A stretch of DNA of 64,000 nucleotides. It comes from Psammoneis japonica (lineage: Eukaryota). Location: positions 124,001 through 188,000 of the forward strand of contig QPGO01000085.1 of the NCBI GenBank assembly GCA_008632985.1, given 5' to 3'. This document shows positions 19,264 to 60,589 of the stretch, one piece after another. The notes beneath the pieces are model-generated. The model ran no database searches. It saw nothing but the letters and a program-made list of their open reading frames with translations, and was not told where the DNA came from. Position 1 is the stretch's first letter; every line of letters begins with the position of its first letter. A program made the translations under genes and the position numbers.

Positions 19264-19846
19264 GGTTATTCTGAACTAAACCTCACAATGTGAATCAGTT
19301 CTTTAGATATCGTACAGCAATCTTCCGTCTCCCTTTGCTTTCGTTTTGCTCTTACTTGAAGCTATCGACGGTATGCATCCAGAACATCAGCAACTCAACT
19401 TTTGACTTTTAGCCAGAGACCAGAGACCGCCGCGGCGCAGCGAGCAGACTATCAGAGAGGAAGTTAGCAAACGTGCTTTAGCGTTTAGGGTCTTGTGCTT
19501 CTTTAACTACTTTATATTACATACATACTGTATGGCATGAGCGATTTTTGGAAATTCGATGCATCCTTCATGATCTAATATGTTTATGAAAGCACTATCG
19601 ACATGGCGCTTTTCTTCGCACTTTAAAATTGATACTATCTTCTATTTCTTTATTCATAAATTCATTCTATATAAGCTCGCCCAGTCGCCAGTGCTCACTT
19701 TTTCGGCATCATCTTCCATCTTTCTTCCACACCTTTTTTGGTTGTTGGCCGCAAAACAGATGTTGGCAACTGGGTGACGGATTCACTCGTTCTCTTCTGA
19801 TATTCGGTACTGTATTCTCACAAACGAGCATTACGAAAGGTTCACC

Positions 19847-25190: not shown

Positions 25191-25199
25191 AAAAAATGC

Positions 25200-28100
25200 A
25201 CCTCACTTGCTCCCAATCTGAAGGGTTCCCGAGTGAGGTCGGAGGATAGGTTGAAGTAGACGCGGGTGCTTCAAGGTGCCATGAACGAAAATTGAACAAC
25301 ATTCTGTTGAAGACCAACACCGTGCCAAAAGATGTGAAGAATCCTGCATTGGTTCCAAACCCACCAGCACAAAGGAATTGGTGCAAGTGGATGCAAAACA
25401 TAAGAACAGCATGGATGAGAACAATTGGAATGACTGGACAATCACAATGTCCCAGAATTCAGCAAAACAACATGAAAACTTTGCCAAATGGGAACAAGCA
25501 GTGAAAACTCACCAGACAGTCCAATCTTTTGCAGGGGGGTTTAACTGTCTTTGCTGACATTGTCACTCTGTTGATCCACTCTGTCAATCCACCTTGTTTG
25601 CATGGCCCAAAGTTGCACAGTTGATGCCAGCCCCAGGGACTCAACTTCCAACAGGCTGCTGGTCAGAACTGCTGACTCTGATGGTGATGAAGAGAAATCT
25701 CACTGATGAGTGTGCATCAGAAGAAGCCTTTTCAGTGGGGAGTGTTCCTGTCATTGATGACACAGTGAGCCCTCAAGACTTTGGCAGAATTGGAATCTGA
25801 TGTGCATGCTGAGTCTTCACGGCTCACACTGAGAATGGGCCAGAATGAGCAACATGTGTGTGGCACGTGTGGATGTCTGCATGCTGAGTGCAGCTGCCAA
25901 AACCATCAAGAGAAAAAAAAATTCACTGATGACACAAAATGGGCATTGCTGGCCTCATTTTTGTGGGCTTTTCCAAGCCCTTGCAGCAAAGAGATGGGCA
26001 CTGTGGGGGCTCAACTTGGTTGGTTGAGCACCAATTTAACCACCAGTGAAGTTGAAGCCGTCAAGGAAGCTCAAGACAAAAAATGTCCAGGGGGTGGTGG
26101 AACCACTTGGGGGCCCTCTGCTGCTGGCTGAAAGTGCAGCCCTTGTGACATCCCCCCAATGATGCCCCAATGGCCATTCAACAGAGAGCGGTGCTCTGGC
26201 CCAAGACTCTGTTTGGTGCTGGGTGCTTCATGGCATGGCCTGAAAGAACCGCCACACCATTGCTGTGCAATGTGCGGCATGGAGGCTGAGCAGTTGTGAT
26301 GAGCCTTGAGACTCAAGGTGTTGTGTGGCACAGTGTGTTGAAGACCCAGTCTGAGGCTCAAGCCTGCAGCTCTTCTGTGGAACATGGGGCAAATTCTGGT
26401 GCTCTCACTGCCTTCAGGAGAGATCAAGGACAGCTGCATCTAGCTTGCAGGAAAGAACCCATCAGTCAGAGACAATGTTTGCATCTGTGGGGTTGAACAT
26501 GTGGAGATGTTGAGAGAATGGAGCCACCAGTCCTGTGTCCTTCTTGATTGAGCCAGCAGCAAGCAAGGGTGCAGAAAATTCACACAACAGAGTGCGGACA
26601 TGGCTTCTTCACCAGGTGTGCACAGTGTGTCTGACAGAGGTGATTTCAACATTCAATGAGCTGGCAGGAACCTTCTTTGTGCAACCCTGGATGAAAACCA
26701 GTGTGGAGAGAAAGGACATGATGGGTTGTGGAAAGGAAACTGGGCACATGTTTTGGGGCTCATCAAGAATGGAGAGGGTCTGCCAAAGACGTGTGAGCAG
26801 GTGGACAAGGTGTGGAAGATGACACTGTCTTCCCAGACAGAACATCAGGAAGACTTTCCTGTTTGAGTGGGGGCTCTGTTTTAAGAGGTGGTCATCAACA
26901 AATGCCTCTTGCATGGCCTCCTCCCCCTGGGATCCTAGAAGCAAGCTGTGTGTCTCCCATGAATTGCAGCGAATCTCCTGCAGAACACAACTTGATGAGA
27001 GGCATGATGTGGCAGCAGGGTGGAAGCTCCATTTGACTGCCACAGTGACAAATCACAGGACATTGGCTTGTGCACAGTTGGTTGTTTGTCCATGTCCTTG
27101 TCACCACACATGTGTGCCTTTGTGATGCCACAGGAAGGAGGGAGTGTTGCCATGAGGCTGTGTGTTGGACCAGTCATTGTGGGATTAGCTCCAGACTCCA
27201 GAACCCAGAGGCTGGGGTGGATGAAGATGAGGTTACCACACACAGAGTGCACCAGCACTGGCACTGCAAATGGTGCCATCACTTCAGTTTTCATTGCCTT
27301 GGAAAGTCAAATTGTCTGGGAAAGGACCTGCAATCACCATCCTGCACTCACAAGTTCTTGAGTGGGGCTTCCAAGACTGCTGACATGGACAAGATCAAGA
27401 GGACATGTGTGGAACTTCAGAAGGAAGTTCACACAGACCCAGAGTGGACTGATTGGCCAATCAGTTTTGTGGAGAGCACTCCCACAATGCATTGGTTGTG
27501 ACTTCCTCCCCTCTCACTTCTGAACTCACCTTTCATTGTCAGATGGTCATGCAGCTGCTGTCAGGCTCAAGTCCTGCATGTGTGATGTGTTGCTGCTGCT
27601 CCTTCCTTGTTGGGACACATGTGTGCAAACACAGCTGGTGGCAGCACTCATCTGATTTGGATCTTGTTGAGACTGGGGGTCTGTGCCACTTTTGTTCATC
27701 ATCAGAACAAGAAATGACACATGTCTGCCATCATCAAGCTCAGCCATGACCTTTTTCCTGCAAAAACAAGGTTGTTCACAGGCACAATCCTGTCTGACCA
27801 TGTCAGTGCTTGTCTGGCAAGCAACCCAATGGAGTGCCATGTGGTCACATTGCCAAGTGTCCCTTGAGTGAGCCATGAGCCCTGGCACAGAAAGTTCCTT
27901 CAAGCATTGTGACAAACTTCATGCCGCACCTGCTCTTTGTGATTTCCTCTGCCTTGCACTCAAAGCTTGGCTCCATGACAAAATGGTGAGCAGGTTTGGT
28001 TTTGACCCCATGCTGTGCAATTTGTGGAGAGCACAAAGTGCTGTTCTTGGACAGCATTGGATGTTCTGTGGGGGCATGCCCAAGCTCTGGGACACAGCCC

Positions 28101-28560
28101 AAACCCTTTGAATGCATGAAACTGGAGCCCTCCAAAAGCACCAAGTTGGCTCCTTCATTTGGAAATCATGGCAGGAGTTGTGGGAGTTGCATGAAAAACA
28201 AGTGTGTGGCCTCAAAGTTGTCTCAAGGAAGTCTTCTCAATGTCACTTTGTCAAGGCTGAACTCATGGCTGTGCACAACAAGCACCAAGACTGTCTGGTT
28301 GAGGACATCAATGTGATTTTGGACTCAGCAGAGGAATGCCACAATGTGCTCACTCTGCCACATGGTGAAAATGCAGAGCTGGGTCTCTGTGGTCAAGCCT
28401 TGTCTCAGATGAGCTCCAGCTCCAGGTGGGACCTTGCACTGCTGAGCTGTGACACCAACAGTTTTTCGGATCATGCCGCATGTCACTCGTGTGCATTTCT
28501 GCATGACTTTGGCAGAATTTTGCATCATTTTGCAGTGCAATCATTGGGCAATCCATTCAA
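25200..28560 (+). mobile_element. Heavily mutated non-LTR retrotransposon (LINE) remnant: RT, possible RNase H, C-terminal Cys/His region
   Basis: FTDDT (RT xxDD motif) followed by a TTGG(A)L..EKC-like stretch, then KLSHDLFP...EPWHRKFL-like remnants. Near-total loss of TpA and CpG. Ends are approximate. Confidence 0.5.
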
Positions 28561-31279
28561 CAACTTTTGATGTTTTTTCTTCTGTGCCATTGTCAAGGGG
28601 GGTCATCCCTGTGTTTGTCCTGGAATCACTGTTGCATTGTTTGAACAAGGTTGTTTGCACCAGCATTCATTTTTGAGTGCAAAAATTGTTCACATTCACA
28701 CCCAATTGTGCATGAAAATAAGAACATCAGGCAACGTGATCAAAGCATGACAATGACAGCAATCTTGACATTTCTTCAAAATGCAGTGGTCCATCTTCAA
28801 ACTTGTACATCCATGGGCTGGAACGCATCCTCAACAAAAGCATCTTGTCAGCTGCTGTTTCTGTTGGGGGCACCTGCATCAGGTGACACCAGGCCAACTC
28901 TGGCTGATCTTTTCCCTTCTTCCACCACACATCAGTGCACTGGAAATGCGGGTCAACCTGCACTGGCTTTGCCAGTCAATGCTGGTGTGGCAGCACTTTA
29001 AACTGGGTTTGTGATTTCTGAAATTGCGCTTGTTGCATGATGAGTTGGGCTCTCAAATGACATGACTGTGGATGGCAAGGCATTGGATGCAGGACTCAGA
29101 TGGATCCATTGCAGCAGTCACCCAGCCCTGTGGTGAACTGTCATGGCTGAGACAGACCCCTGATGGAATCATCTGTGCACCTCAGGGTTGTGGAGAAGGC
29201 TGGTGGGAATGCTGTGGAACCCAGCCACTCTGACCCCAGCACACCCACTGTGGATGGGTCCTTGTTGAGCACAGAGGCCAAATGAGTGAAAGACCCCACT
29301 GACAGCAATCTTTCATGCTGTGCGGTCATTGTTGACAAATGCGCAGAAATTGTGCAGACCAGCACCAAGAAAAGCATTGGACTGTCTGTCCATCCACCCT
29401 CAGTGAATTGCAATTCTGCAAAAAATGGACTTGACTGCAAACTGATCAGGTGCATTTTGGAACAACACATTTGCAGAAATGCATCTGTCAGTTGGCAGTC
29501 AAGTCCTTTTTTGCACAAGTTTTGAGAAGACAACAGCTTTGGCACAAAAATGTGTAGATTCTGCTGACGTCCTCAAGTGATTTGTGCATTTTGCATTGTG
29601 GGTCATTTTCAAAAGATTCCTGCTGCAATTGGACAGCTCAAGATGTGAGCAGGACCTTCAAGCAGAGCAGAGGTTGGTTGGATGAAGATGCATGTGATGA
29701 TTGAATTTGGAGCAGAGACAACAGGGCATGACTGGGGTTGTGGCAAGTGTTTTCAGCACACTGGATCCACACAAAGGTGGGCACAATGTTCACATTGTTC
29801 TGTGACCACCAATTGTCCATTTTGGACACTCAACACACACATCTTGCAGACTGGTTGTTGGTGGAGAGACAGTTTGCACATGCTCCTCATGGTGGTCCTC
29901 ACATGGAAGACTTGCTTCTTGGGACTCCTCAAAACAAAGCTGTGGCTGCTTTGCTGGAGAGCTGGCAAGTGCACACTGTCTCTTGGGAAAATGGAGGATG
30001 TGTCAGAGGAACTGGGGCATCAATCATGCTGCAAGAGACTTTTCCACACAGGTGGGGTGTGCTGTTCAACTTCTTGTGGAAAGAGTGAGGCAGCCCTTTG
30101 CACGTGACAGGGTTTCAGCTGTGCAAGTGAGTTTGTGCATTGCAGCAGCTTGGTTTTTGCATGCAGTCAGCTCTTTGCACATGATTGCACAACACAGCTT
30201 TTGCTTTCAAGCCATGCAGCTCACAAGAACAATGCCAACATCAATTGTCAACAACATTTTCTGTTTTGGCACATGTGGTGGTCTCTGCATGGAGACTCTT
30301 TTGCCACATGGATGACAGTGATTGGTGCGCTGTTTTGTCCATCAACATTTTTGTTCACACCCTCTCAATGTGCTTGTTTGCCACCAGTCAACATGCCACA
30401 CTTTTCCATGCAAGCACCAGCAGGACTGTCCTGTGCAAGAATTTGGCATTGTGCCAGCCAGCCTCCTTGGGCACTTTGGAACATTCAGCAGTTGTGCCAT
30501 GATGATGTAGATGCCACAGGTGTCAGAGGGGATGCTCCGTCATGCCTTCATTTGGGAGTGACATCACCATCACAGTGGCTCCTCTCTTTGCATTTTCACT
30601 CCCATTGGCCATGCATTTGCACTGCACAATTCTGCATCCAAGATGTTCTCACATTTCTTGTCTCATTGTTTCTTTGAATTCTCAGGACAGAGTGCCTTTG
30701 CATTTTGTCATTTCTTCCAAGTGGCGCTGGCTGTTTTCCACATGGATGGCTGCAATCCAGGCATTGACTGCAGCAATTGTTTTTCTTTTGTTCCTCCAAG
30801 ACCCATGTCAAGACTTGTCAGTGCTTTCCTCATGTCAAGTTCCTTGCAATTTGGTCATCAACAACACACAACAGCATTGTTTGAAGCTGTGCTTCTCCTC
30901 CTGTGCCTGCTGGCGATTTCCAAGTCTTTCTTTTCAGACAAGATGCACCCTCACTTCAAGATGACTTCTGGATCAAGAAATGGCTCTTAAGCCCTTGCAC
31001 CTTTCAGGTTGAATTTTGACAAAGCCCGCATTCATTTGAAAACACACACCCTTTCTTTGCAGTGTTTTTTTTTGGCATCTTTCCAGCTGGGTGTTTGTCC
31101 ACTCTGCTCGACCACAGCAGCAGCCATGCTTGGCTCTCTGCACACAACAAGCACTCAGCTCATTCCTGTCTAGACTTAGAATGCTTCCACAGTCATTGTC
31201 CCTGCCACATCTTTGATGTGCTGGGGAGCGTGGGTCCACAACATTTTGGTTTTTTCAGTCAACACACATCACACACACA
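28560..31279. repeat. Degenerate repeat-derived DNA, family not identifiable
   Basis: TpA- and CpG-depleted, CA/TG-rich composition; no credible ORF. Confidence 0.5.
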
Positions 31280-31284
31280 CTGAC

Positions 31285-31560
31285 TGACAGAAATTGAAGG
31301 CAAATGGCAAGAATTCAAACAACAACTCCTTGCTGCTGTCTAAACAGCAGATGAGTCTCCGCTCAGAGACCGTCACAGGAGCCGAGAGACGTGCAAGTCG
31401 GCACAATCGGGCCACTGTTGTCATTCTTGTGAGCCTTGTGGCTCGAAAGCAAACTACATCGCGCGTGAACGCGCGGAACTAAAGCACACAAAACTGTGCG
31501 CGGCAAACTAAACAGCGCGCGACACTTCGCGCGCATCCAAATCCTGTTCAAATCCTGTCA
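31285..31560 (-). repeat. 3' LTR of the copia element (mutated copy)
   Basis: Aligns without gaps to 37887-38162 with 11 substitutions. Confidence 0.95.
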
Positions 31561-34230
31561 CTCCCCAGTTTGCTTGAGGAGCTACAGAAACAGATTCGAC
31601 TTCGGATGGAATGAAGTTCCAGAACATGAGGGGGCGGAGGAGGTCCCAGATTTGGGAGTAACCCCAATGCTTGCTGAGAATGTCAGCAGGGTTGCGGGAG
31701 CCTTCGATGAAGTGGAACTCAAGGCAACCAGAGGCAATTGCCTCACGCACACGGTGGAACGACAGTGCGGTGTGTCGCTTGTGTAACTTGGAGTGCGGGA
31801 TGGTGGCACTGTCTACAACCGACTTGTTGTCACCGAACATGTGACTAACGTTACGGATCGGGACACCAAGGCAGCGCAGGGTGATGCGCAGGTCGACAAT
31901 CTGCTCAACACAATTCCTTGCGGCAACAAATTCAGATCCGTAGGTTGCAGTTTCCACGGTGGCTTGTTTCTTGGAGAACCAATCAGCCGGGAATTTGTTG
32001 AGGAAGTGGAGCATTCCCATGACAGAGCGTCCGGTGAGCATGCAATGGTGCAAGTTTGCATCGACGTAGTGGGTGGTAGTGACGAACTTGCCAAGGGGCG
32101 GTGGAGCGTCCTTCGGGATCATCTCTTCTGCTTCACCACACACGGAATGCATCCATTCATAGGCCGGAGCAGGGAGATCCGAACAGTCAGGCTCTTCCGT
32201 GCGAACGCGGAGAGCACCGTGTCGCATCTTGGAGAGGTGCCCACACACGCGTTTGGCACGATCCAAGTGGCCTTGACGGGGCGCAGCTCGGAAGCTAGAG
32301 AGTGACATGACAGCCGTGGTGATGTCAATTCGACCAAGGGACACTGCCCATTGGAGAGAACCAACAAGAGACTGGAACTTGTGAATGCCATCGGGTCCCA
32401 GCAGTTCGGAAGTGTCCAGTTCGGGGTGGTCACCCTTCTCTAGAGGTGACAGGGCGTTGGTGGCAGGTTTCTCCCCAAACAGTCGGGCGCAGCTGTCGAC
32501 CATGCGCTCGATGTACTTGCGCGGAGACAGGCACAAGGTTCCGTCGGGGTCCCGGGAAAAGTTGCAACCCAGATGGAACTCAATGGGTCCCGCACCCTTG
32601 AGCTTGAACTTGTGCTTTTCCGTGAGAGTATCGACGAAAGATTGGGGGTCCTTCATGGCAATGGCGAGGTCATCCACATAAACGGCAATGCATTCACAGT
32701 GGTCGCCGTTCCTGCGCATCCAAATGTCGGGTTCGGCGCGGCAGGGGAAGAAGCCTTCAGCTCGCAGGCAGTCGGCGAAGCGCTCGTGCCAGCGGAGACC
32801 GGAGCTGCGCAGTCCATACAGTGCCTTGTGGATGACAAGGATGTGTCCTTCGAGTTTGCCAAATTCGGGTCCAGCTACAATGTAAAGCTTCTCCTTGGTG
32901 GTGGCTTCAAGGCAGGCATTGCCAATGTCGGTGGCCCATGTCTCCAGCTCGTTGAGTTCGGCCAGGAAAATCATCAGCCGAAGGCCACGGAGGGAGACTA
33001 CTCCGGAGTAGACACTGTCAACAGGTGCGTCCGTGAGGTGCCCGTTGGCTGCGAGTCGTGCCTTGTGGCGACCGTCGTGTTTCACGTCGTGCACCAGGTG
33101 CACTCGGATCTTCTTGTGTCCCGCAGGAGGAGTGGAAGACTTGAAGGGCCCGCAGTCATGGAAGACTTCGTATTCGTCGAGTTGGTCCATCTCGAGATTA
33201 GTTGCGTCTCCCCACTTGCGGTTGCCGTTGCGTTCGTCCAGTGACATGGCGTGTTTGCAGTTCCAGGGAACTTCGCATCCGCACTTGTAGCGAGGTGCAG
33301 TGCGGAAGGAGCGAAGCTTGGCTTGGTTGGCCATGCGAAATAGCTTCTTTTGGCACCTCGCGACAGTGCGGAACCGCTTCCAGCCATCCGTGTCAAGGAG
33401 TCCGTTCTCTCGTGCATGGATGGCACAGGTGACGGGGTCATCCTTGGCGATGATGGCAAGAGGCTCGGACGTGATCTCCCCACTTTCCCATTCAAGCATG
33501 ATGTTGTAGCTTGAGCCTTTCCAGGTTGGGTCGTGAGGCTTCAGAGGTCCTTCGTGTGATGCGATGCGTCGAAATTTCCAAATGGTGGTGTCTTCGTCTT
33601 CTTGCTCAATGTGATTCATGATGTCATTGCAGGCAAGGACTTCCTCGTATTCGTCATTGTTGACAGAGCAGACGAACTTAGTGAGCTCGGGATTGCCGTT
33701 CACTTTCCATTCGTGGTCTTCGATGGCCTTGACGATGCGAGCTCTGTGGCGTTGTCCATCCTCTTGTGGCTGCATGAGGAAGGTACGTCCAATGATGTCT
33801 TGCGGATCGAAAACTGGCATCTTGGGTGTCCTGATCTCCCCATCAGGAGAATCGACGGGGTTGTCGTCATGGCGAGATTTGATGATGGGTTCAGGTGGCT
33901 CCCCATCAGGAGGATCAAGACGCAGATTTCGAACGGCAGGATCGGGGGTAGCGGAGCGAACGTTGGACCGGTGGAGGATCTTCTGAGTCTCGTCAGATGG
34001 GATCTTGAAGGTCATCTGGTGGCCGACGTGCTCAGCAATGCCAACAAAGCGTCCACGCAACTCACGGGATTCGGACGGCCAATCGGAGTCATCGAGGTGG
34101 AAGTGCACTGGTTCCCACCAGTGAAAGCGAAGCAATGGGCTGATGTCCGGGGTGGATCCAGTGAGAGTCTCGAGGGGCGTGCGCCAGTGGAGACGTGGGG
34201 ACGCTGTGTGGTTGAGCATGAAGCACACGC
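31508..34230 (-). pseudogene. pol: Copia pol remainder: integrase C-terminus, reverse transcriptase, RNase H
   Basis: Recognisable RT/RH motifs with many Tyr->Cys/His replacements. Joined out of frame to the upstream ORF. Confidence 0.9.
31561..31570 (-). other. Polypurine tract of the copia element
   Basis: AACTGGGGAG on the minus strand immediately before the 3' LTR. Confidence 0.7.
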
Positions 34231-36947
34231 ATCTGATCCTCGAGTGTGTTGACAAACTCTTTGTCCGTCTCAGTGCCGTAGACATCGGTGACGGTAGACT
34301 CGGTGCCAACAAACAGTTGGGCGCTGGTGCAACCGGAGTCGACGGCCGGGGTGTCGGCGCAAACGGTGTCAGTGGCGATGGGCTCGTTGCGGCGGTGCAC
34401 ATTAAGGGCGGGGTTGGGTGATTTGCAGGCCTTGCGAAGGTGTGCACCGGCGGGCATGCGGGCGCACTGCGTGGTGCAGTCAAAATTGCGACGGACCGCA
34501 TCGACAGGTGGGAAGCCAAAGTGAGGCCGAAGAGACTCGAAGGGGGGGTCCTTGGGCTGTACAGTGCGCTCCGGAGGTGGAACGTCATCGCCATTGGGGT
34601 CAATCGCACGCAGATGACACTCGTAGAACACGTCGTCGTTCGGAATGAGGTGATCATCGAGGGCGGATGCGTGATCGGCAGACAAGGAAGCGGACAAGAT
34701 GGTCTCGTTGACAATGACACGGTGACGGCAGTTGCCGTGTTCGTCAAATGGGTTGGCAGTGGGATCGTCCTGCAGGTCAGAGATCGCGTCGCACCACTGG
34801 TCGTCGTCAGTGACAGAGTGATCGAGGACGGAAGGGTCCCATGTGTCATCACCGGTGAGGATGACATGGGGCAGTGTGTCCCATTCGGCGTCAGTGTAAG
34901 GTCGCATGGCAACATGAGGCAGGCCAGCCTTGATGTCAATGGGGATGACACAGCCATCAGGAGTGGCAATGCGTTGCAAGCCGTTGGGCACCCTGACAGA
35001 GCGATCGTTGACATCCTGTTTGCACCATTCGAGCTGGCCGCAGGAATGGATGGTCTTGCCCTTTCCCGTGTGTGCGCACTGATGGAGGATGGCGATGACG
35101 GGACCACGCTGGGTCTCAATGACGGCACCAGCGGTGACAATGGGGATGTCCACCAATTGATGATCGTCAATGCCCTGAACGTCGACTTGGCGAGAGGTGC
35201 GTGCAATGACGCGAACGTCGTCGCCAGCAATGCCGCCGTTGGCCCCACGATTGACTAGAGCGCCAGTGCGTGTGGAGCGATGAGCAGAGGCAGAGCAAAT
35301 GACATTGTGGTTGTTGACGCGGCGGCAAGTGCGGCCGTTAAGTTCCATGTCATCTGCAGGAGCTGGTGGGGCAGAGGAAGCAGCGGATGGCCCCGGTCGA
35401 CTGGCATTGGGGGCTTGGTTAGGTGACAACAGACGTTGCAGATCACCGGGTGGCAGTGGCTTGCGCTTGGTGAGGTGCGCCAGGATGGGATTGTCCGAAG
35501 TGGCGTCCACATGTGTGGCGGAGTCACCACAGTCAGCAGGAGTCGTGTTGGACAAGTTGACATCACCGTCACTCCCAAGGTGTTGGTCGTGAAGGTTGGC
35601 CGTAACAGACTCATGGCAGTTGCTGGCTCGCGGGGTGCGGTTAGGCGGACGAGAGTGCTCAAGGATGATCGCCTTGGAGGAATCGGGCAACGAATCCCAG
35701 AGCCGTTGGTGGTTGGGAGGGAGACGTCTCCATTGGACACCGGTGAGGCTGGGACCGCGGGTGTGGGCAGCATTGGCTTGAAGGACGTCAACGTCGCTGT
35801 CAATGTCGTAGAACACATCGTCGGACGGTTCCTCGGAGCAGACGTCGTGTGCGTGTGTGGCGCGTCGGGGAGCTCGAGGTGTCGTCTTGGGTTGAAACGT
35901 GCTGTCGCACTGAGCTGCCGCAGAGAGGAGCAAGCCACAGCATTGATCGCATGTGAGGCTCTTGCCACTCTGCGTGCGATGCTGATCAGCTTGGTTCTTG
36001 ACAGCACGGAGTTCCTCGACAGGGTGCACGGCATTCTCGAGCATGACGCGCTTCTGTCCCTCAGAGAAGTGGTCACTGGCGGGGATGAGTGCCTCGCACT
36101 TGCGCAACTGATCTTGCCAATGAAGGATGAACCCGTGGGTCGGACCTTTCCAAGTGCCATCACCAAGACGTGTGGTGGTGAGGTGCGTGAGCAGGGTGGA
36201 GGACTCGACAGATGCACGGGTGGAGGCAAGCGCGCACTCAGACAAGGAGCGGCAGACGGTCTGTGTGTCAGAAGACCCCACATTTTTGCGAATGAGAGCC
36301 TTGCCCTTGTCGGTGAGAAGGATGCGTTCGAAGACGGTGAACATGCACTTTTGCTGTTCAGCAAAGAGCAGTTTGTCTTCGGGGCTGGTCGGTTTGTACG
36401 ACGAGTCTAGAATGCACTCGACGTCTTGGGCACGGGCTTGTGCCACAAGTGAGGTGTGCCAAGTGTGCCACTGCTTGTCGGATTTGAGAGCCGTGAAAGC
36501 GGTGGGATCACGCTTGATGCCTCGCTTGAAGTCTCGCACCGGGTCGCGTGCCTTGGTCGGGTTGGTGACATGTGGAGGTGCAAGGGGTGAGCTGCCGATG
36601 GACACAGAGGACATGCAGTCCGGGCTGAGGCGGTGGGCAAGGAACTCGTCATGCGTGAACAAAGAGGAGTCGTTGGCAACGTCAAGGCCTTTGTGTGCTT
36701 TGACAATGCACAGGCTGACCAGTGCTGCTGACATGTTCTTACAACCACGGGGCAAAGGGATCACATCAGTGCCGTTGTCGCACTCAAGCGAGTCGATTTG
36801 GGACGGCATGAACGTGAACAGTTCCTGATGCGAGTCCGTGCCGTCTTGGGCCAAAGCCAAACGAAGAGGACTCCCAGCACCTTGGGCAAGCACAGTTCCA
36901 ACCACGTGCTCGAAACCATCGGTTTGTTGCTGACGAGTGAGAACCAT
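34231..36947 (-). pseudogene. gag: Copia gag-protease-integrase N-terminal ORF
   Basis: FKRGIKRD gag motif. Protease motif reads ALVNRGANGG, where catalytic D->N arises by CpG->CpA. Integrase EPIATDTV...EFVNTLED is then truncated. Confidence 0.85.
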
Positions 36948-37869
36948 GGCAGACAAAAGTGGTGTCAGTGCAATCAATTCTGGTTGGGAAGCGAAGGTGG
37001 ACTCGAAACTTGGGTGAGAATGGACTTGACTTGAAATGGACTTGACTTGAAATCTTGAACTGTCTTAAAATCAGAAGTCGCCGGGCTTTGTTATCCCGTT
37101 CGTTGTTGAGTGCTAAACTTCCTGTCCGGTCCGCAGAGTTGTGCCGGCACGTCCGAACCCGCAGCCAGCGGTGCTTTGGGTTGCTCACGAGCGGAGCAGC
37201 GGGTTGCAAACCCCTGCAGGTAAGCTGACCAGAGGTGGACAAGACCCCTGAACCGTTCTTATTTTGTGTCGGTTGGATTTCCCGATCAGGCTGGCCAGTT
37301 GACGCAGGCGTCAGGCGCTGTGGACGAACAAACAAACGCGGGAAAGCACCCTCGCCCCAACGCAGGCTGCAGTCACGGCTGCTTGCTCTCACAGTCGTCC
37401 TCGTGGACCTAGTAGAACTGTAGAGCACCAGTAGTCCGGGGTAGATCAGGTACAATGGACTCGGTGTGCTTGTAGAGTGGTGGCAAAACCGTGGTCCGAA
37501 GGGTGGGTACAGGTTCTTGGCCGTGAAGATATGTATATATATATATGTCTACAGCGATGAAGATCCTTGAATATGTAGGGTTCTTGACCGTTAACCGATG
37601 AATAGGTATATCAAGGGATGAGGATCAAGGATAGACTTGGATATGACCGTTGAATGTATGTCTTCAGCGATCGAAGGTAGTATAATCAATCCAGATATCC
37701 AGCGGTAAGGAGACTTGACGGTGACGTTAACTTCCTGCCGATGCCCTGGTATTGGATGCGCGTAGACTTGCCGATGTATGTAGAATATATACGGAGGTCC
37801 ACGTAGAATTGAAATAGCGTCGTTGGTAAATCAACGACGACGATGGCGGTTGCTCAATGGGTTGACAAT

Positions 37870-37886
37870 GAGCAAGACTGTTAATC
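37870..37886 (-). other. Putative primer-binding site complementary to a tRNA-Asn anticodon arm
   Basis: No TGG after the 5' LTR. Plus strand reads GAGCAAGACTGTTAATC, i.e. a CT-GTT-AA anticodon loop with GA/TC stem. Confidence 0.45.
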
Positions 37887-38162
37887 TGACAGAAATTGAA
37901 GGCAAATGGCAAGAATTCAAACAATAACTCCTTACTGCTGTCTAAATAGCAGATGAGTCTCCGCTCAGAGACCGTTACAGGAGCCGAGAGACGTGTAAGT
38001 CGGTATAATCGGGCTACTGTTGTTATTCTTGTGAGCCTTGTGGCTCGAAAGCAAACTACATCGCGCGTGAACGCGCGGAACTAAAGCACACAAAACTGTG
38101 CGCGGCAAACTAAACAGCGCGCGATACTTCGCTCGCATCCAAATCCTGTTCAAATCCTGTCA
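37887..38162 (-). repeat. 5' LTR of the copia element (TpA-retaining copy)
   Basis: 276 bp, TG...CA, followed by TSD CTGAC. Confidence 0.95.
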
Positions 38163-38163
38163 C

Positions 38164-40600
38164 TGACAAACATCTGAGATGGGGAGTTCACTCCCTTGTG
38201 TTGGACAGACTGGCACAGACAGACTGGAGAGATCCGATGATCTCTCCTTTGCTCACTTTCTTTCTTCTCTGGCACATGATTGACACATCTGTCCCCCAGA
38301 TGTTGTTAGATCATCCAGACACCAGCAGTTTGCAAGGTTGTGAGCAGCAGTGTGCTGTTCATTTTCCTCAAAACAGCCACATTTTTCAACGCTTGTTGTG
38401 TGACTTGGGAGCGTTTCTCTGTTGAAATCATCATCTTTGTCACAGCTGTTTGTCTCTCTCAATTTGTGATCACCATGACCACCACAGAACACATGCCAGC
38501 ATTCCATGCAGGCACCAGTTTTTTTTTTCACACAACTGTGGTCAACAAGAACACAAAGGCCATTGATTTGACCAAATCAAGTCAACACTGGTTGAGCTCC
38601 AACCACACGATTGCTTGCCCGATGCCTGTCATCACCTGAGTGCCCTTGGTTCAGACAAGACACCTGCTCCTGAAGATCTTCTGCATGAATTTGCTCCTCA
38701 AGGCCTCAAGAACAATGCCACAGCAACTCTCCATCACAAGGTTGTTTAGGATCTTGTCATTCCCCAAGCTGCGCTGATCAAAGATCTCACACAGATTGGA
38801 CCAATCATGGAAAGGCTTCTCTTTTTGTGGCTCTGCCCCTCAAGGTTGTCCTGTTCATCTGAGCCATGCCAATCTTCAGAAGGCTGTGACCAAGGCAATC
38901 TTGGGTGATCAGGACGCTGTGACAACAAATGTTGAGACCCTCTGTCTCCATTTTTGTCCTGGTTTTGAGCATTGTGATTGTTGGGATGACATGTCTGATG
39001 CTCCACATCCAAAATCCTCTTCCAAGGCCTCAGCCACTCATTGGCCTGGTCCAAAACAGCACAAGCAAGCTGTGGCCAATGTGTTGAAGAGTGTTTCTCC
39101 TGTTGAAAAACATTCAACCATGACTCCACCTCCCCAAGGTTTGCAGCATCCAAGTTGGACCCAGTTGCCAGGTCTGCTGCTTGTGGCTCTGATGCCTCTG
39201 TTGCATCTTAAGTTGATGATGCACTTGCCATGGGTGCCAAGATGGACCCCAGGAGTGCTGTTCCAAAGAGTGTCAAGTCTGGCATGTCTGTTGTGGTGCC
39301 TGAAGTGGGCCATCTGCAGTGATTGGTGGTGGTTCCCTTGAATTTCCTGCCAATTTGGTGGTGCTTCCCACCAGCTTTCACACCCCACTCAAGACCCCAA
39401 AGTTTTTTCTTTCTTGCCATTCTGTTGTTCCACACAAAGATGGTCATGTTTGCCCCCTTGATGGGCTGCCCTCTGTTGCCAAGGTCACACCTGAGCTGCT
39501 TGCCACCCACAAGCCACTGTCATTGTCTGATGCTTGTGGATGCTGCCAGTGCTCTGTTGGTCATTAAGTTGATTTGCACTTGGATTTTGGGTTCAGCAGT
39601 CATCAATTTTGGGTGTGCAATGCTGCCATTCCTCATGTTGTCCAAACACAAGAGAGGGCAACCAAGTCTCATCACCTCCCAACATGTCACCTCTTTCCTT
39701 CACTGTCAGGACCATTGTGGCATTGAATGGTGTTTTTCCTGGCACTCCTGATCTGTTGACCATCCCTGATGATGACCCTGCACTTTGCAGCCAGGGAAGG
39801 GATTCCTGCAGCACAGAGGAAGCACACAAGGCCATTGAGAATTCAACCTTCAACCAAGACACCTCACTTGACAACCACAATTTGAATGCTGTGCAATGCT
39901 CACCTGTGATGCATTGCTGTTTTTTCAACATTGAACAACTTTGTGATGCATTTTGTTTGTCCAATGTGTTTTTCAGGGGTGACACAAAATGTTGCAAAAG
40001 CTTTGGTTTGTCAGGTGGATTGCTGTTGCTTCATTTTCACTGCATCATCCACCGTGGTGGATTTCCATTTTTTGGCCCCATCTCTCCTGATGAGTTTTGC
40101 AGTTGATTGTTCATGAATTGGCAAAATTGTTCTTTGGTGCATGACTCGATTTGTCCACCAGACAATTTGTTGTTGGGAGCTGCCTTTGACTTTTTTTGTT
40201 GACCAAAGACTGCTGCACTGACCAAGGCTGTGGGTTGGACACTTCATTCCCAATGTGCTTGTTGGTTTGTGGGACATTGTTGTTGTTGATTGTTGTTGTG
40301 TTTGTGGACCAAGTCTTGGGCATTTCTTTTGGCCCTCTCTTTGTTCTGCTGCTCTGGCCCTCTGTTCTTTCGGATGCTCTCTTTCTTTCTTGATGATGAA
40401 CATCATTGCATTGCTCATCAGAGGAGGGTGACAGACATCCAGGGTGGGGAGTGCACTCCCTTGCATTGGACAGACTGGCATGGACAGACTGGAGAGATCT
40501 GATGATCTCTCCTTTGCTCACTTTCTTTCTTTTCCAGCAGCACATGAGATCACCATCTGTCCCAGATGTCACCAGATTGTCCCAACACCAGCAGTCTGCA
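38164..40600. mobile_element. Old degenerate element bounded by a ~170-bp direct repeat (38164-38335 and 40429-40600); LTR or split-direct-repeat retroelement remnant
   Basis: Both copies share tgaca.acatc...ttggacagactggca..gacagactggagagatc.gatgatctctcctttgctcactttctttc. Interior is TpA- and CpG-depleted. Confidence 0.6.
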
Positions 40601-41356
40601 ACACACCTTGGCACCATCAACAAGCTGTCTTTGTCTGGAGGATGAAAGAGCCATGTCTGTTCTGGAGCACCACACCAATCAACACCCAAGACACAGCACA
40701 CAATTTTGCAAAGCTTGAGAAAGAAGCTGACAAACAAAAACTCTGGTGCACTGCGAACAACCCACGCCCTGGCTGATGGAAATTGACACAGACACAATAA
40801 TCACTGAGACAGTTGGGCAAAGAAAACTTGATCAGCAATGAGCACAGTGTTGGACTCTAGGTGGAGTCGGAGCACCCAAAGAGCATGTCAGTCGAAAAAG
40901 CACTTCTCCTCACTTTGTGCGCTGCAAGAGACAATGCACCGCCAGAAGCAGTGACTTTGACAAGGAGGTCATACAATGACAAGTTGAGCAAGGTTAGAGA
41001 AAAATCATCAAGACCCACATTTTGCTAACCATAACCTTGCAAATCAGTGTCGAACAAGGATTGACATGAAGAGGCAAAAAAAGCAGGTCGACGCTTTTGG
41101 ATGCGAAGTGATGACTGACAGACGGGACATGTGGGCGAAATCGCATCGCCAAAACGTTCATTGTCAGCTTCATGCACGAAGGTGCTGTTTATTTTATGGA
41201 TTTATTTTCATCTCTGTTGAAAGCCACACTGGGCGGGTTCGCCATTCGCCACATTTTTTGTTTTCCATCGCCACTCGCTTTCCGCCTGCCACTTGCCACC
41301 GTGTTGATCCATCGTTCATTTCTTCCTTGAAACGTTGCAAGTAAAAGCCTTCTACG

Positions 41357-43134
41357 ATGGTATCGGAACAAACAGAAGAACATGCTTGTGAGAATCCCAA
41401 CGAGATGAGCACCAAAGTGGACTATGACACAGCTGATGCCCGTGTCGACGAGACCAAGTTTCTCGAGGCTGAAGACGAGAACATTGGCGAGGAGGAAGTT
41501 GCCAACGAGTCTCTCGTGAAGGAGCTTCAAGTCACAAAGCATAGAGCTGAAGCCTTGGAAGAAGCTTTGAAGCAGGCTCAGGACGAACTTTCACATCTGA
41601 TTGCAAATAAAGATCAAGACGATGCACTTGCATCGTCTGTAATTGATCAGTATGGAGCTGATCTCGAGAAAGCGAATGCTGCCATCAAAGAGCAGGCCGA
41701 GACACTTAAATCAAACAAAGTTACTATCGATAGTCTTGAGGAAGGCCTGGCAATGAAGGAGGAGTACATCAACAGTGTCCTCAACCAGTCTGAGAAGTAT
41801 TCTTGGTTTGAAGACGTGGAGAAGAAACACAGGGACGTGCAAGCCCTTCTTGAGTCTGAGCGCAAGAACTCCAACTTGACTGTCGAAGATATGCAAAGGG
41901 AAATCGATGAAGCTCTTGACAAGGTCCAAAGCCTCGAACAAAAGTCTCTCGAGATGTGCACGAAGAACGAAGAACTAGAAGCGATGTTGGAGTCGGAGCG
42001 TGAGCGCGGAGAATTACAGGCAAAGTTTGAAACTGACCTTAATGAGACCAAATCCTCTCTCAAGGAGGCTCAAAGAGAAATCAAAGAGCTTAGCGCGGTC
42101 GTATCTCAGCTTGAAAAGGAAAAGAGCGATCTTGCTAAGGAAAGAGAGGGAGTTGAATCAGAAAAGGCAAAAGCTCAAGCTAAAGTCGAACTTCTAGAGG
42201 TTGCGGTTCAGGTCGAGCGCGACGAGATCAAGCGCTTGAATAGCTTCTTTGAAGAAAACATTGAATCACTCAAGGCAAAAGCTCGATCCGAAGTCGAGTT
42301 CCTCGAGGTTGCGGTTAAGACCGAACGTAACGAGATCAAACGCCTTAACAAAGTATTCGAAGAAAGTATTGAATCTGTCAAGTCGACAGCTCGAACCGAG
42401 GTCGAGTTCCTAGAAGTCGCGGTTAAGGTTGAACGGGAAGAGAACAAGCGAAAGAATGAATTGATCGAAAAGATCAAGAGTGAAAAGGCTGACCTTGTGG
42501 CAGAACTCGAAAATGAATCCCAGAAGGTGTTAGACCTTCAGGAAGCTATCAAATCCAAGGACTCTTTTGGAAAGGAGCTCAAAGCTAGTCTCGACAAGTG
42601 CAAAAAGGCCCAAGTTGAGCTAGCTGTCAAGGCTGTCAAGTTGGAAGATATGAGGCAGCATACGTTGAAGGAACTTAAAACAACAAATGACAAGCTCGAT
42701 GCTGCAAAGTGGGACATTGTTGTGTTGGACGAAAAGCTCAAGGCGGCAACTAAAGCGAACGAAGCCCACCAAGAAAGCATGGCCAAGGTTAGCGAATGGG
42801 TTTCAGCTCTGGCATCTAATGTGAAAAAGAGCTTCAGCAACAGGGTGACGAGGACGTCACTTGTAATAAGGCTCCATCACCGAAACATCATGAAGATGCG
42901 GAACAAGACCCATTGAAAGACTACGAGGCAGGTCTTGCAGATGAGGACCTGCTGGGCGACAAACGGGATGATGAAGACATGGACAACCAAGAAGCTGAAA
43001 GTCGGCAAAACGAAAATTCCAATGAATTGTCAACGGGCGGCGAAGCTGATCCGACATCGAAAGCAACTGTCAAGTCACCTCGATCGTCAACTGCCAATGC
43101 AGATATGTCGCCTGAATTGGAGCCAACCAATTGA
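41357..43134 (+). CDS. Coiled-coil protein, paralogue 3, with a 1-nt frameshift near 42825 (pseudogene or assembly error)
   Basis: Closely similar to 23298-25070. gtgaaaaagagc vs gtgaacaaagagc in copy A; the C terminus continues in ORF 42913-43134. Confidence 0.75.
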
Positions 43135-43499
43135 CTGTAACCGACACAATGCAAAGCATCAGAATAGTGAAGTTTACCGTACCTTAAAAAATGTAGTGTT
43201 TATTTTCAGATTCGACGGTAATGTAGAATGTAGAATGTAATTTGAAAAGGGAGAAATCGTACGGTATCCTCAAGACTCCCGCAAACCCGTGGAGTACAGT
43301 ACTCGACCATTTTTGCTTCTGCAGCCAACATAATTTTCGTCTTCAATGCAATGAAGAAAGTGAGTTTGGGTGCAAACACTTTAGAATTTTTCAATTTCAA
43401 CTCAGCACTGGGGAATGTGTGTAAGACGTACAATGAAAACAATGGAAAAGGGAAACATTGCTTCCTCAACTTTTTTTGCCTCTCAGGAGCTTGCACACT

Positions 43500-46400: not shown

Positions 46401-47310
46401 CACTCTGATGATGTGCTGTGGGTTTGTGCAGGCTTGCATGGTGCACTCATCTGTGCCCTGTGCCTGACATTTTGGAGAGGCTGTTGCAAGCTGAAAAACA
46501 AAAAGTGCCCCCCTGCGAGTGCCCCTTTGTGGCAGTGTCAAACATCAAGATTGCTGGAGCAGGTGCCTGGAGAATCAAAGCATTTGGAAATCAAAAGTGT
46601 GCAAAGAGGAGGAGGGTGCATTTGCCTTTGCTTTTGCTGGTGCAAAGGAGGGCAGGATGATCAACAAAGTGTGCAAAAGAAAGATGAGTGGTGCCAAGCT
46701 GGAGATGGCTGGCAACATGAGCATGTGCTCTTCTGTGCTCCAGCCAGCTGAACTGTGTTGCAATGAGCAGTGAAAACAACTCATTTTTGGGGTGGACAGC
46801 ATTGTGCATCACAAAAAAGTTGTTCTTGATTGTGTTGCTGCCTTGAGCTCTGCTGGCAGTGGAGAGAGAGCAAGACATGGACCAAACAAAGCCAACCTGG
46901 CTTGTGCCCAATTGTTTGGTGGTCACTCACAAGTGCAAGAGCAAGCAATGCTGCAACAGCTGTGCCCATGACTTGGGTGAGCAACGATGCTGCTGCAGTT
47001 TGATGAGTGCCTTGCGAGCGACGAGCTGGGCACTTGGCACTGCTTGCTGTTGATGTGGTGTTCTCACCCTCCTTTGCACTGCTGCAGAAATTGGAAAGTC
47101 AACCAGTTGTCATCGTTGTCATTTTTTTGGTGTGTTGTGCTTTCTTCATGGAAAATGGGTGTCATCCATGCAGTCAATGCAGTCACATGATCAAGGCCTC
47201 ATGCAAATGCCACTGTGTGGTGGCCAACTTCCAACGTTGTGTGCACTGTTCCGAATGGAGAATCTGGTGCACTGGTGCACTGCGTGGACGGCTTCTAACA
47301 GTGCACTGCA
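43500..47310. repeat. Degenerate repeat-derived DNA, family not identifiable
   Basis: TpA- and CpG-depleted; only Cys/His-rich spurious ORFs. Confidence 0.5.
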
Positions 47311-47322
47311 GGTGCTGCAAAT

Positions 47323-60521: not shown

Positions 60522-60589
60522 AATGGTAAATAATCCTGGGCTTACTCAGTAAAGACTGCTTGTGTCTTTCTTTATGAATAAGCTGTCAT

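What the first reader, a model, noticed from the sequence alone, without database searches (positions are those of the whole stretch)
31600..36947. Direction fixed by protein motifs: conserved Tyr become Cys or His on both strands
Seen vs known copia motifs: IGNACLEA (GNAYL), VHDVKHDG (VYDVK), HCECIAVYVDD (YEYI), RVCGHL (YGYL), LRCLGVPI (LRYLG), SHMFGDN (SYMFGDN), EPDCSD (EPDYSD), YKCGCEVP (YKYGYEVP). TAY->TGY and TAY->CAY both occur, so A>G happens on either strand. About a dozen Tyr survive (YVDD, ALYGL, TYGSE), so conversion is partial in this young element. Inference: the process inactivates by missense, not nonsense, and leaves long open frames.
Basis: partly seen in the sequence, partly recalled or inferred. 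Interest (0 to 1): 0.75.

Follow-up and report, generated by a model that had tools for sequence, protein, structure and literature searches.

The report
TpA hypermutation of a diatom retrotransposon
A copia-type jumping gene in a diatom genome has had most of its TA steps rewritten to TG or CA, turning conserved tyrosines into cysteine or histidine; this is the mark of a targeted A-to-G mutation process reported so far only in one unrelated alga.

Summary
The region is a Ty1/copia LTR retrotransposon on the minus strand (31285-38162, 276-nt LTRs, 5-bp target duplication). Against 240 relatives, 20 of 29 conserved tyrosines are lost (14 Cys, 4 His, 2 Phe), while only 29 of 516 other conserved columns differ (Fisher p about 1e-16). 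This fixes the direction as TpA to TpG/CpA. TA is depleted in all three codon phases, to 0.28 of expectation against 0.76 in 75 relatives.

The 3' LTR has lost 10 of the 14 TA sites that the 5' LTR keeps, so at least part of the process acted on integrated DNA. Conversion starts sharply at 37066 and favours the sense strand (23:5). It weakens towards the 3' end. CpG-to-TpG/CpA changes are a slower second component.

The flanking blocks have almost no TA or CG. The host is a diatom. The same TpA-only signature was reported in 2026 for integrated viral DNA in the chlorarachniophyte Bigelowiella natans. My literature searches found nothing for diatoms. The enzyme and the targeting remain inferred.

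The parts
37887..38162 (-). 5' LTR (276 nt, TG..CA ends). It is unconverted: 14 TpA sites.
31285..31560 (-). 3' LTR (276 nt). It keeps only 4 of the 14 TpA sites of the 5' LTR; 9 became TpG and 1 became CpA on the sense strand. The one other difference is a C/A transversion. CpG counts are 21 against 20.
31280..31284 (.). Target-site duplication CTGAC, left copy. The right copy is at 38163-38167.
38163..38167 (.). Target-site duplication CTGAC, right copy.
37066..37886 (-). Leader behind the 5' LTR with natural TpA density. Together with the 5' LTR it holds 62 TA in 1097 nt, about 56 per kb, like the roughly 50 per kb of relatives. The last TA before the desert is at 37066.
36948..37065 (-). 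118 nt upstream of the gag ATG that are already free of TA. The sharp onset of conversion lies here, not at the ORF start.
34228..36947 (-). gag-protease-integrase frame: 906 codons, no stop, 5 Tyr left. TA density is 0.00-0.34 of that in relatives.
34226..34228 (-). Site of an internal deletion with a frameshift. About 73-77 residues of full-length relatives have no counterpart here. Contigs of sister copies carry extra sequence at this point.
   Evidence: tables 7 and 8
31508..34225 (-). pol frame (end of integrase, reverse transcriptase, RNase H). Pfam RVT_2 matches at E = 6.4e-28. 13 Tyr are left. The TAG stop at 31508-31510 lies inside the 3' LTR.
25501..31284 (.). Left flank: an older block with almost no TpA or CpG (observed/expected 0.00-0.15 and 0.00-0.12 up to 31000) and TpG/CpA near 2. 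No Pfam family was found.
38163..41000 (.). Right flank: the continuation of the same kind of converted block, into which the element inserted.

Best explanation
This is a recently inserted Ty1/copia (CoDi-like) LTR retrotransposon in a diatom genome. It is being destroyed by a mutation process that converts the A:T pairs of TpA dinucleotides to G:C, so that TpA becomes TpG or CpA.

I think the process acts on the integrated DNA and is aimed at selfish or foreign DNA. Within this copy it starts abruptly about 120 nt upstream of gag and prefers the A of the sense (non-template) strand. It also weakens towards the 3' end. That pattern is what an editing activity coupled to sense transcription, or one spreading from a fixed entry point, would give.

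A slower second component removes CpG (CpG>TpG/CpA), most simply through 5-methylcytosine deamination. Together the two end in blocks without TA or CG, like those flanking the element. Because TA>TG/CA cannot create stop codons and erases TAA and TAG, the element dies by missense (Tyr>Cys/His above all) and keeps long open frames.

Shown here: the direction, the dinucleotide specificity, the regional limits, the LTR asymmetry, the strand bias and the gradient.
Inferred: action on chromosomal DNA, coupling to transcription, a defence role, and the chemistry (adenine deamination to inosine, as proposed for Bigelowiella natans).
For: Direction and specificity:
- 20 of 29 conserved Tyr are lost (14 TGY, 4 CAY), against 29 of 516 other conserved columns.
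- Of the 49 changed conserved columns, 23 are explained by one TA>TG/CA step and 10 by one CG>TG/CA step. On my own reading of the remaining 16 changes, which I did not compute, none is a clean single A>G or T>C step outside TpA.
- In the RT-RNase H region TA is 0.28 of expectation, against 0.76 +/- 0.17 in 75 relatives' DNA. GC is 0.569 against 0.473 +/- 0.037.
- TA is depleted in all three codon phases: 6.2 vs 15.5, 3.4 vs 17.0 and 3.4 vs 20.7 per kb.

Action after insertion:
- The LTRs must have been identical at integration. All 10 transition differences between them are TA in the 5' LTR against TG (9) or CA (1) in the 3' LTR, and none go the other way. Only 1 of the other 248 bases differs, a rate ratio of about 310-fold.

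Limits and polarity:
- TA density is natural from the 5' LTR down to 37066 and then collapses.
- TA retention relative to homologous segments of relatives rises along the ORFs from 0.11 to 0.14 to 0.24 (thirds of 30 bins; Spearman rho 0.53, p = 0.003).
- The sense-strand bias is 23:5 (p = 0.0009).

Targeting:
- A host gene at 41292-43333 lies between two converted blocks and has normal TA and CG (61 TA, 100 CG).

The sequence is real and the process recurs:
- Contigs of four runs of one sample hold the element. Among 40 shown variant places (488 more not shown), 29 are transitions among TA, CG, TG and CA. Other copies carry TG/CA at 6 places where this copy keeps TA, and TA at 9 places where it has TG/CA.
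- Four other elements from environmental assemblies show Tyr>Cys/His: P0076, P0132, L046 (12 of 18) and L052 (7 of 16). For the three that share the RT columns (P0076, L046, L052) the changed positions differ from the window's.

Precedent:
- De novo TpA>TpG/CpA hypermutation of integrated viral DNA was seen in mutation-accumulation lines of B. natans (bioRxiv 10.64898/2026.01.13.699255; abstract, Results and Discussion read).
Against: - Nothing here shows a mutation arising in real time.
- The LTR asymmetry could also come from gene conversion of the 5' end by an unedited copy.
- The spared 820-nt leader is transcribed in a normal LTR element, so a simple model of sense transcription from the LTR does not explain the boundary at 37066.
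- L046 has the opposite product bias (8 His, 4 Cys), so the strand bias is not a constant of the process.
- The products are skewed by codon phase towards synonymous outcomes: CpA is raised at phase 3-1 and TpG at phase 2-3. Both LTRs share TG at LTR position 57, where 60% of family depth reads TA. So part of the TA loss predates this insertion or reflects GC-rich codon use.
- No genome is held, so no deaminase candidate could be sought.
- The four runs come from one sample that may be the assembly's own source, so they are not independent support.
Confidence: 0.7

Rival explanations
1. Same signature, different chemistry. The T of TpA is enzymatically modified (for example oxidised, 5-hydroxymethyluracil-like) and mispairs with G, giving T>C on that strand, rather than the A being deaminated.
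For: TpA is its own reverse complement, so the sequence cannot tell whether the A of one strand or the T of the other is attacked. The link between T modification and TpA in some protists is recalled, not tested.
Against: Nothing in the data favours it over adenine deamination. The only published proposal for this signature is an ADAT2-like adenine deaminase.
Confidence: 0.12
2. A-to-I editing of the element's RNA (ADAR- or ADAT-like) before reverse transcription. The changes would then be fixed when the edited RNA was copied into DNA and inserted.
For: The excess of sense-strand A>G (23:5) is what RNA editing would give. ADARs prefer a 5' U (as stated in the preprint's Discussion). Some conversions seem inherited from the source copy.
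Against: Both LTRs are copied from one RNA and must be identical at insertion. Yet the 3' LTR has 10 conversions that the 5' LTR lacks. The transcribed leader is spared. Sense-strand T>C products also occur (4 His, 1 LTR site, 1 Val>Ala). The flanking blocks, which show no retroelement signature, are converted even more fully. ADAR is not strictly TpA-bound.
Confidence: 0.07
3. Most conversions did not happen in this copy. They were inherited from an already hypermutated source copy that was mobilised in trans. Only the LTR differences are local.
For: The family is laid in 13,968 contig pieces in run X1. At the two window-mutated Tyr codons visible in the shown rows, 62% (31873) and 58% (32239) of depth share the window's state. 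Both LTRs share TG at LTR position 57 where 60% of depth reads TA. The phase-skewed products suggest past purifying selection.
Against: With only two possible products per site and about 60-85% conversion, independent copies are expected to share many states by parallel change. The gradient and the sharp boundary, and the 10/14 conversion of the 3' LTR, match the ORF's level of conversion. This rival concerns timing only and leaves the direction and the kind of process untouched.
Confidence: 0.3
4. Ordinary divergence, natural Cys/His in this lineage, GC-biased gene conversion, or a sequencing or basecalling artefact at modified bases.
For: The element is GC-rich (0.57-0.60). The runs that confirm the sequence come from one sample.
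Against: The loss is specific to Tyr (p = 1e-16). The dinucleotide specificity excludes a general AT>GC drive. The two LTRs of one copy differ. Conversion is partial and graded. Contigs built from exact 31-letter words reproduce the converted left flank with 1 other letter in 738 nt (table 8). Environmental contigs from other data sets show the same signature.
Confidence: 0.03

Closest known systems
TpA-specific hypermutation of integrated viral DNA in Bigelowiella natans (Mettrop et al., bioRxiv 10.64898/2026.01.13.699255, 2026)
   Same: There are almost only A:T>G:C transitions, only at TpA, giving TpG or CpA depending on the strand. The process is confined to selfish or foreign DNA next to normal genes. 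TpA-depleted coding sequences there are enriched in reverse transcriptase and DDE domains. The rate excess is of the order of hundreds to a thousand fold (about 310-fold in the LTR here; about 1000-fold there).
   Different: The host is a diatom (stramenopile), not a chlorarachniophyte (rhizarian). The target shown is an LTR retrotransposon with protein-motif polarisation. Depletion goes much further: blocks with TA at 0.00-0.1 of expectation, against 0.45 for their viral region. Old blocks here also lose CpG, which that text never mentions (0 occurrences). Here a sharp onset, a gradient and a strand bias are seen within one element. Their evidence is direct (mutation-accumulation lines); mine is comparative.
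Repeat-induced point mutation (RIP) of fungi
   Same: It irreversibly inactivates transposons by dense, dinucleotide-specific transitions within sharp regional limits.
   Different: The direction is opposite: RIP turns CpA into TpA and makes AT-rich, stop-rich DNA. Here TpA becomes CpA/TpG, the DNA becomes GC-richer and stops are erased. A host gene pair 87.5% identical over 1.9 kb is untouched, which argues against a trigger by duplication alone at that identity.
APOBEC and ADAR editing of LTR retroelements in vertebrates (for example PMC4866542, seen in a search listing only)
   Same: Retroelements carry clustered, strand-biased transitions left by a host deaminase.
   Different: APOBEC gives G>A. 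ADAR acts on RNA with a loose neighbour preference. Both act before integration, which cannot explain the LTR asymmetry here or the converted blocks that show no retroelement signature.
AID-driven somatic hypermutation (recalled, not tested)
   Same: It is a polar pattern: a sharp 5' onset, decay over a few kb, and a link to transcription and the non-template strand.
   Different: It deaminates cytosine at WRC hotspots in vertebrate B cells. This is an analogy of pattern only.
Methylation-driven CpG decay of transposons
   Same: 10 of the 49 changed conserved columns are CG>TG/CA. Window-specific CG>CA/TG changes appear against sister copies. Old blocks have CpG near 0.
   Different: It accounts only for the minor, slower component. 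In the LTR pair none of about 20 CpG has changed, against 10 of 14 TpA. Other blocks (47001-52500, 62501-64000) are TA-free but keep CpG at 0.2-1.0.

Membership tests
Ty1/copia (CoDi-like) LTR retrotransposon | Two LTRs with TG..CA ends flanked by a short target-site duplication | tested here: met
   276-nt LTRs with 11 differences and a 5-bp CTGAC duplication
Ty1/copia (CoDi-like) LTR retrotransposon | Copia gene order (integrase before reverse transcriptase) and an RVT_2-type RT | tested here: met
   Pfam RVT_2 at E = 6.4e-28. Full-length relatives align collinearly across 36941-31616. Named relatives with 'integrase catalytic domain' come from Phaeodactylum and Nitzschia. No Pfam integrase or gag hit on the window's own frame.
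Ty1/copia (CoDi-like) LTR retrotransposon | Membership of a named CoDi group of Maumus et al. 2009 | not tested
   No CoDi reference sequences were compared. The label rests on 40-43% identity to diatom copia proteins.
TpA>TpG/CpA hypermutation of selfish DNA (B. natans type) | Changes are A:T>G:C transitions restricted to TpA | tested here: met
   23 of 49 changed conserved columns and 10 of 11 LTR differences are TA>TG/CA
TpA>TpG/CpA hypermutation of selfish DNA (B. natans type) | Direction is TA to TG/CA, not the reverse | tested here: met
   Tyr is the state in 85-120 of 120 relatives at the strongly conserved motif positions; one call rests on a plurality of 56/120 and two on Phe-majority columns
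TpA>TpG/CpA hypermutation of selfish DNA (B. natans type) | Both strands are hit | tested here: met
   14 TGY and 4 CAY; L046 has 4 Cys and 8 His
TpA>TpG/CpA hypermutation of selfish DNA (B. natans type) | Confined to foreign or selfish regions, with neighbouring genes spared | tested here: met
   500-nt map. The gene at 41292-43333 is normal. The origin of the fully converted blocks is unknown: 0 of 68 ORFs with a Pfam match above its curated cut-off.
TpA>TpG/CpA hypermutation of selfish DNA (B. natans type) | Arises de novo in chromosomal DNA | tested here: inconclusive
   The LTR asymmetry (10 vs 0) argues for it. No time series or pedigree is available.
TpA>TpG/CpA hypermutation of selfish DNA (B. 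natans type) | Same enzyme (ADAT2-like candidate) | not testable with these tools
   No genome is held for the window
Fungal RIP | C:G>T:A at CpA, giving TpA gain | tested here: not met
   Opposite direction
ADAR-type RNA editing fixed by retrotransposition | Changes made before integration, so both LTRs are alike | tested here: not met
   10 TpA conversions in the 3' LTR only

The most novel reading that the evidence does not exclude
Diatoms possess a dedicated DNA-editing defence that rewrites TpA to TpG/CpA in transposons. It is polar and strand-biased, as if coupled to transcription, and is followed by slower CpG loss, leaving TA- and CG-free fossil blocks. Because the same TpA-only signature occurs in a rhizarian alga, this would be an old adenine-editing immune system spread across the SAR (stramenopile-alveolate-rhizarian) supergroup. 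It would be the mirror image of fungal RIP, and it would have shaped the codon use of the retrotransposons that survive it.
Probability: 0.45. Interest if true: 0.85.

Novelty: new member of a known kind. Interest (0 to 1): 0.7.

Why it matters
A genome defence that mutates A:T to G:C at a single dinucleotide was unknown until a 2026 preprint on one chlorarachniophyte. Finding the same signature in a diatom, much further advanced and on a classic LTR retrotransposon, would show that the process is not a curiosity of one species. Diatoms are ecologically dominant and genetically tractable, so the enzyme and its targeting could be found by knock-out.

The within-element pattern gives concrete mechanistic handles that the earlier work does not report. 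These are the sharp onset, the gradient, the strand bias and the LTR asymmetry.

There are practical consequences too. The process erases TAA/TAG stops and makes long false ORFs rich in Cys, His, Trp and Gln, which will mislead gene callers and TE annotation in such genomes. LTR-divergence dating will also overestimate ages roughly ten-fold if TpA sites are not masked (11 differences, of which 10 are TpA conversions).

Tried and rejected
- Whole genome of the window: not held. No genome-wide copy alignment or deaminase search was possible.
- Earlier notes of this scan: nothing for this genome or this sequence, and only unrelated phage cases by words.
- Pfam on the gag-integrase frame: no family.
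- Pfam on 68 ORFs of 110 aa or more in the converted blocks: no family above its curated cut-off; one PT-repeat match at E = 0.00099 below cut-off. Pfam on 8 longer ORFs there: only sub-threshold matches. The origin of these blocks stays unknown.
- tblastn with 7 full-length relatives: no second copia in the window.
- Paralogous gene pair 23232-25194 / 41292-43333 as an internal polarity test: both copies have normal TA and CG and a balanced spectrum, so the pair says nothing about direction.
- Search for a converted native stop codon at the end of pol: the global alignment forces the ends together, so it is uninformative.
- Expression: no RNA holder is listed among the runs found.
- Read laying showed only 40 of 528 variant places, so sharing of each Tyr change among family copies could not be tabulated.
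- Flanking-base context of converted against surviving TpA: inspected by eye only, too few sites, no preference seen.
- Literature: six full-text searches found the B. natans preprint and no report of TpA-directed hypermutation in diatoms. Maumus et al. 2009 (PMC2806351) has no occurrence of 'point mutation', 'RIP', 'hypermut' or 'degenerate' (term search only). Subscription papers and the preprint's supplements were not seen.

Full report
WHAT IS THERE

The flagged stretch is the coding part of one Ty1/copia LTR retrotransposon on the minus strand. Two 276-nt LTRs with TG..CA ends lie at 31285-31560 (3') and 37887-38162 (5'). They are flanked by a perfect 5-bp target duplication, CTGAC.

Two long stop-free frames cover the interior. 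The first is gag-protease-integrase, running from the ATG codon at 36947 down to 34228. The second is the end of integrase plus reverse transcriptase and RNase H, from 34225 to the TAG at 31508-31510. Pfam finds RVT_2 (E = 6.4e-28) and nothing on the upstream frame. Seven full-length relatives align collinearly but lack a counterpart for about 73-77 of their residues at 34227/34228, where the frame also shifts. Contigs of sister copies carry extra sequence exactly there (tables 7 and 8).

THE HOST

No genome is held for the window.
- Neighbouring genes are long uninterrupted ORFs.
- The zeta-carotene desaturase at 7961-9784 is 81-86% identical to named proteins of Pseudo-nitzschia, Cylindrotheca, Seminavis and Nitzschia. 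Its nearest Atlas cluster is mostly Bacillariophyta.
- The only named relatives of the element are from Phaeodactylum and Nitzschia.

The host is therefore a diatom. It is not the intron-rich chlorarachniophyte discussed below.

THE OBSERVATION

I aligned the pol frame with the best 120 of 2710 database relatives (63-70% identical for 118 of them). Of 289 columns conserved at 90% or more, the window differs at 14. Seven of these are Tyr>Cys (all TGY) and two are Tyr>His (CAY). Seven of 17 conserved Tyr survive, while 268 of 272 other conserved columns are unchanged.

I then added 120 relatives of the upstream frame, used an 80% threshold and dropped columns beyond the frameshift. That gives 545 conserved columns, of which 49 are changed. 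There are 29 Tyr columns: 9 kept, 14 Cys, 4 His and 2 Phe. Fisher's test of Tyr against the rest gives p = 1.1e-16.

Tyr content is the lowest and Cys content the highest among all compared sequences, in both frames. The eight quoted motifs are all present. Six of them rest on clear Tyr majorities in the relatives. One call in RVCGHL rests on a Tyr plurality. Two calls (VHDVKHDG and the second Cys of YKCGCEVP) rest on Phe-majority columns.

DIRECTION AND SPECIFICITY

The refuting condition was that relatives naturally carry Cys/His. It fails. 118 of 120 RT-set relatives have 0 or 1 Cys/His at the 20 conserved Tyr columns, and 118 of 120 INT-set relatives have 0 or 1 at the 11 conserved Tyr columns.

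Of the 49 changed conserved columns:
- 23 are explained by a single TA>TG or TA>CA step. Besides Tyr these include Ile(ATA)>Met, Val(GTA)>Ala, and Lys>Glu, Thr>Ala and Ile>Val behind a codon ending in T.
- 10 are explained by a single CG>TG/CA step.
- The remaining 16 are, on my own reading of the list, transversions or multi-step differences.

At the DNA level, the RT-RNase H region has TA at 0.28 of expectation and GC 0.569. The same region of 75 metagenomic relatives has 0.76 +/- 0.17 and 0.473 +/- 0.037. TA is depleted in all three codon phases. So this is a mutational signature and not selection on amino acids.

WHERE AND WHEN IT ACTED

LTR asymmetry. The two LTRs differ at 11 positions. 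Ten of them are TA in the 5' LTR against TG (9) or CA (1) in the 3' LTR, and none go the other way. The 3' LTR keeps 4 of the 14 TA sites, while only 1 of 248 other bases differs. That is roughly a 310-fold rate excess. No CpG transition separates the LTRs. Since both LTRs are copied from one template at insertion, these ten conversions most simply happened in the chromosome.

Sharp onset. TA density is natural from the 5' LTR through the leader: 62 TA in 1097 nt, about 56 per kb, like the roughly 50 per kb of relatives. It collapses at 37066, which is 118 nt upstream of the gag ATG.

Gradient. Relative to homologous 60-codon segments of relatives, TA retention is 0.11 in the first ten bins, 0.14 in the next ten and 0.24 in the last ten (Spearman rho 0.53, p = 0.003).

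Strand bias. Products favour A>G on the sense strand: 14:4 at Tyr, 9:1 in the LTR, pooled p = 0.0009.

A sharp onset, a distal decay, a non-template-strand bias and a converted 3' LTR beside an unconverted 5' LTR together resemble a transcription-coupled editing tract. Two things do not fit. The spared leader is not explained if transcription starts in the LTR. Another hypermutated element (L046) has the opposite product bias.

SURROUNDINGS

The element sits inside an older block (25501-31284 and 38163-41000) that has almost no TA and no CG, with TG and CA near twice expectation. Similar blocks lie at 43501-47000 and 60501-62500. Other stretches (47001-52500, 62501-64000) are TA-free but keep CpG at 0.2-1.0.

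The element itself has lost 70-90% of its TA but keeps CpG at 0.8-1.0. The order therefore seems to be fast TA loss followed by slow CpG loss.

A host coiled-coil gene at 41292-43333 lies between two converted blocks with normal TA and CG. It is 87.5% identical over 1.9 kb to a paralogue at 23232-25194. So targeting is precise, and duplication at that identity does not set it off. None of 68 ORFs in the converted blocks has a Pfam match above its cut-off.

THE FAMILY AND OTHER ELEMENTS

Four runs of one sample hold the element. Laid at 80% likeness, 13,968 contig pieces of run X1 fit it. Summed depth is 58,848-219,945 over the element against 57-90 on the left flank. The tool warns that this is not a copy number.

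Variant places in X1 are 436 transitions and 86 transversions. Of the 40 places shown (488 are hidden), 29 interconvert TA, CG, TG and CA. Sister copies carry TG/CA at 6 places where this copy keeps TA, and TA at 9 places where it has TG/CA. Eight CpG losses are nearly private to this copy.

Some conversions predate this insertion. Both LTRs have TG at LTR position 57, where 60% of depth reads TA. The products are also skewed towards synonymous outcomes by codon phase.

Elsewhere, P0076 (9 of 20 Tyr columns), P0132 (7 of 9), L046 (12 of 18) and L052 (7 of 16) are further hypermutated relatives from environmental assemblies. For the three that share the RT columns, the changed positions differ from the window's, so these are independent events.

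WHAT IS KNOWN

A 2026 preprint (bioRxiv 10.64898/2026.01.13.699255; abstract, Results and Discussion read) reports mutation-accumulation lines of Bigelowiella natans. In them, 230 of 231 new mutations in two integrated viral regions are A>G or T>C, all at TpA. TpA-depleted genes are enriched in reverse transcriptase and DDE domains, and an ADAT2-like adenine deaminase is proposed. The text never mentions CpG, copia or tyrosine.

Six full-text searches found no such report for diatoms. A term search of the CoDi paper (PMC2806351) found nothing related. Supplements of the preprint and subscription journals were not seen.

Fungal RIP runs in the opposite direction. APOBEC and ADAR editing act before integration and do not fit the LTR asymmetry.

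VERDICT

That covers the direction TA>TG/CA, both strands hit, partial conversion, and death by missense with open frames kept.

I add five amendments:
- a strand bias;
- a slower CpG component;
- a deletion with frameshift;
- some inherited conversions;
- a published precedent in another lineage.

It is a new member of a kind described only in 2026. The open questions are the enzyme, the targeting signal, the meaning of the boundary at 37066, and how much of the damage arose in this copy rather than in its source.

Noticed in passing
25501-31284, 38163-41000, 43501-47000, 60501-62500: Blocks with TpA and CpG both at 0.00-0.15 of expectation and TpG/CpA near 2. Only TGA stops are left, so long ORFs rich in Cys, His, Trp and Gln open in every frame. 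No Pfam family was found in them. Their origin is unknown.
   Followed up: partly
47001-52500 and 62501-64000: Stretches that are TpA-free but keep CpG at 0.2-1.0 of expectation. Like the copia element, they suggest that TpA loss is fast and CpG loss slower.
   Followed up: partly
41292-43333 (also 19778-22393, 23232-25194, 55270-57018): A coiled-coil gene family with four copies in the window. The copy at 41292-43333 is an unconverted island between two fully converted blocks. It is 87.5% identical to 23232-25194, and both have normal TA and CG.
   Followed up: yes
34226-34228: This copy lacks about 76 codons that full-length relatives and sister copies have, and its frame shifts there. This break is independent of the hypermutation.
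   Followed up: partly
31285-38162; The family is extremely abundant in the sample that holds the window: 13,968 contig pieces fit at 80% likeness. One contig joins 37165 to 37867, so some copies may lack 701 nt of the leader.
   Followed up: no
38168-38735: The right flank also collects high summed depth (7786, falling to 572 by 39000), so the converted block next to the element belongs to another repeated family. The left flank is at single-copy level (57-90).
   Followed up: no
31616-33400, codon phases: The products of TA loss are skewed towards synonymous outcomes: CpA is highest of all 76 sequences at phase 3-1, and TpG is raised at phase 2-3. This hints that the family evolved under this mutation pressure while still functional, or simply has GC-rich codon use.
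   Followed up: partly
L046, L052 (metagenome loci); proteins P0076, P0132: Four other copia relatives from environmental assemblies show the same Tyr>Cys/His signature. L046 has TA at 0.27 and CpG at 0.96 of expectation. For the three that share the RT columns (P0076, L046, L052) the changed positions differ from the window's. L046 favours His over Cys (8:4).
   Followed up: partly
L009, L037, L049, L076 (metagenome loci): Some relatives show the other pattern: CpG down to 0.11-0.29 of expectation with 1-2 stop codons, but TA in the lower part of the relatives' range (0.44-0.59) and normal Tyr. They look like elements decaying by CpG loss alone in other hosts.
   Followed up: no
2622-5684 (+): A 1020-codon open frame made of Ser/Pro/Thr-rich repeats with a Cys-rich end. 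It looks like a secreted or cell-surface protein.
   Followed up: no
37534-37545: A short (TA)n run sits in the unconverted leader. It is a clean internal sign that this part has not been exposed to the process.
   Followed up: no
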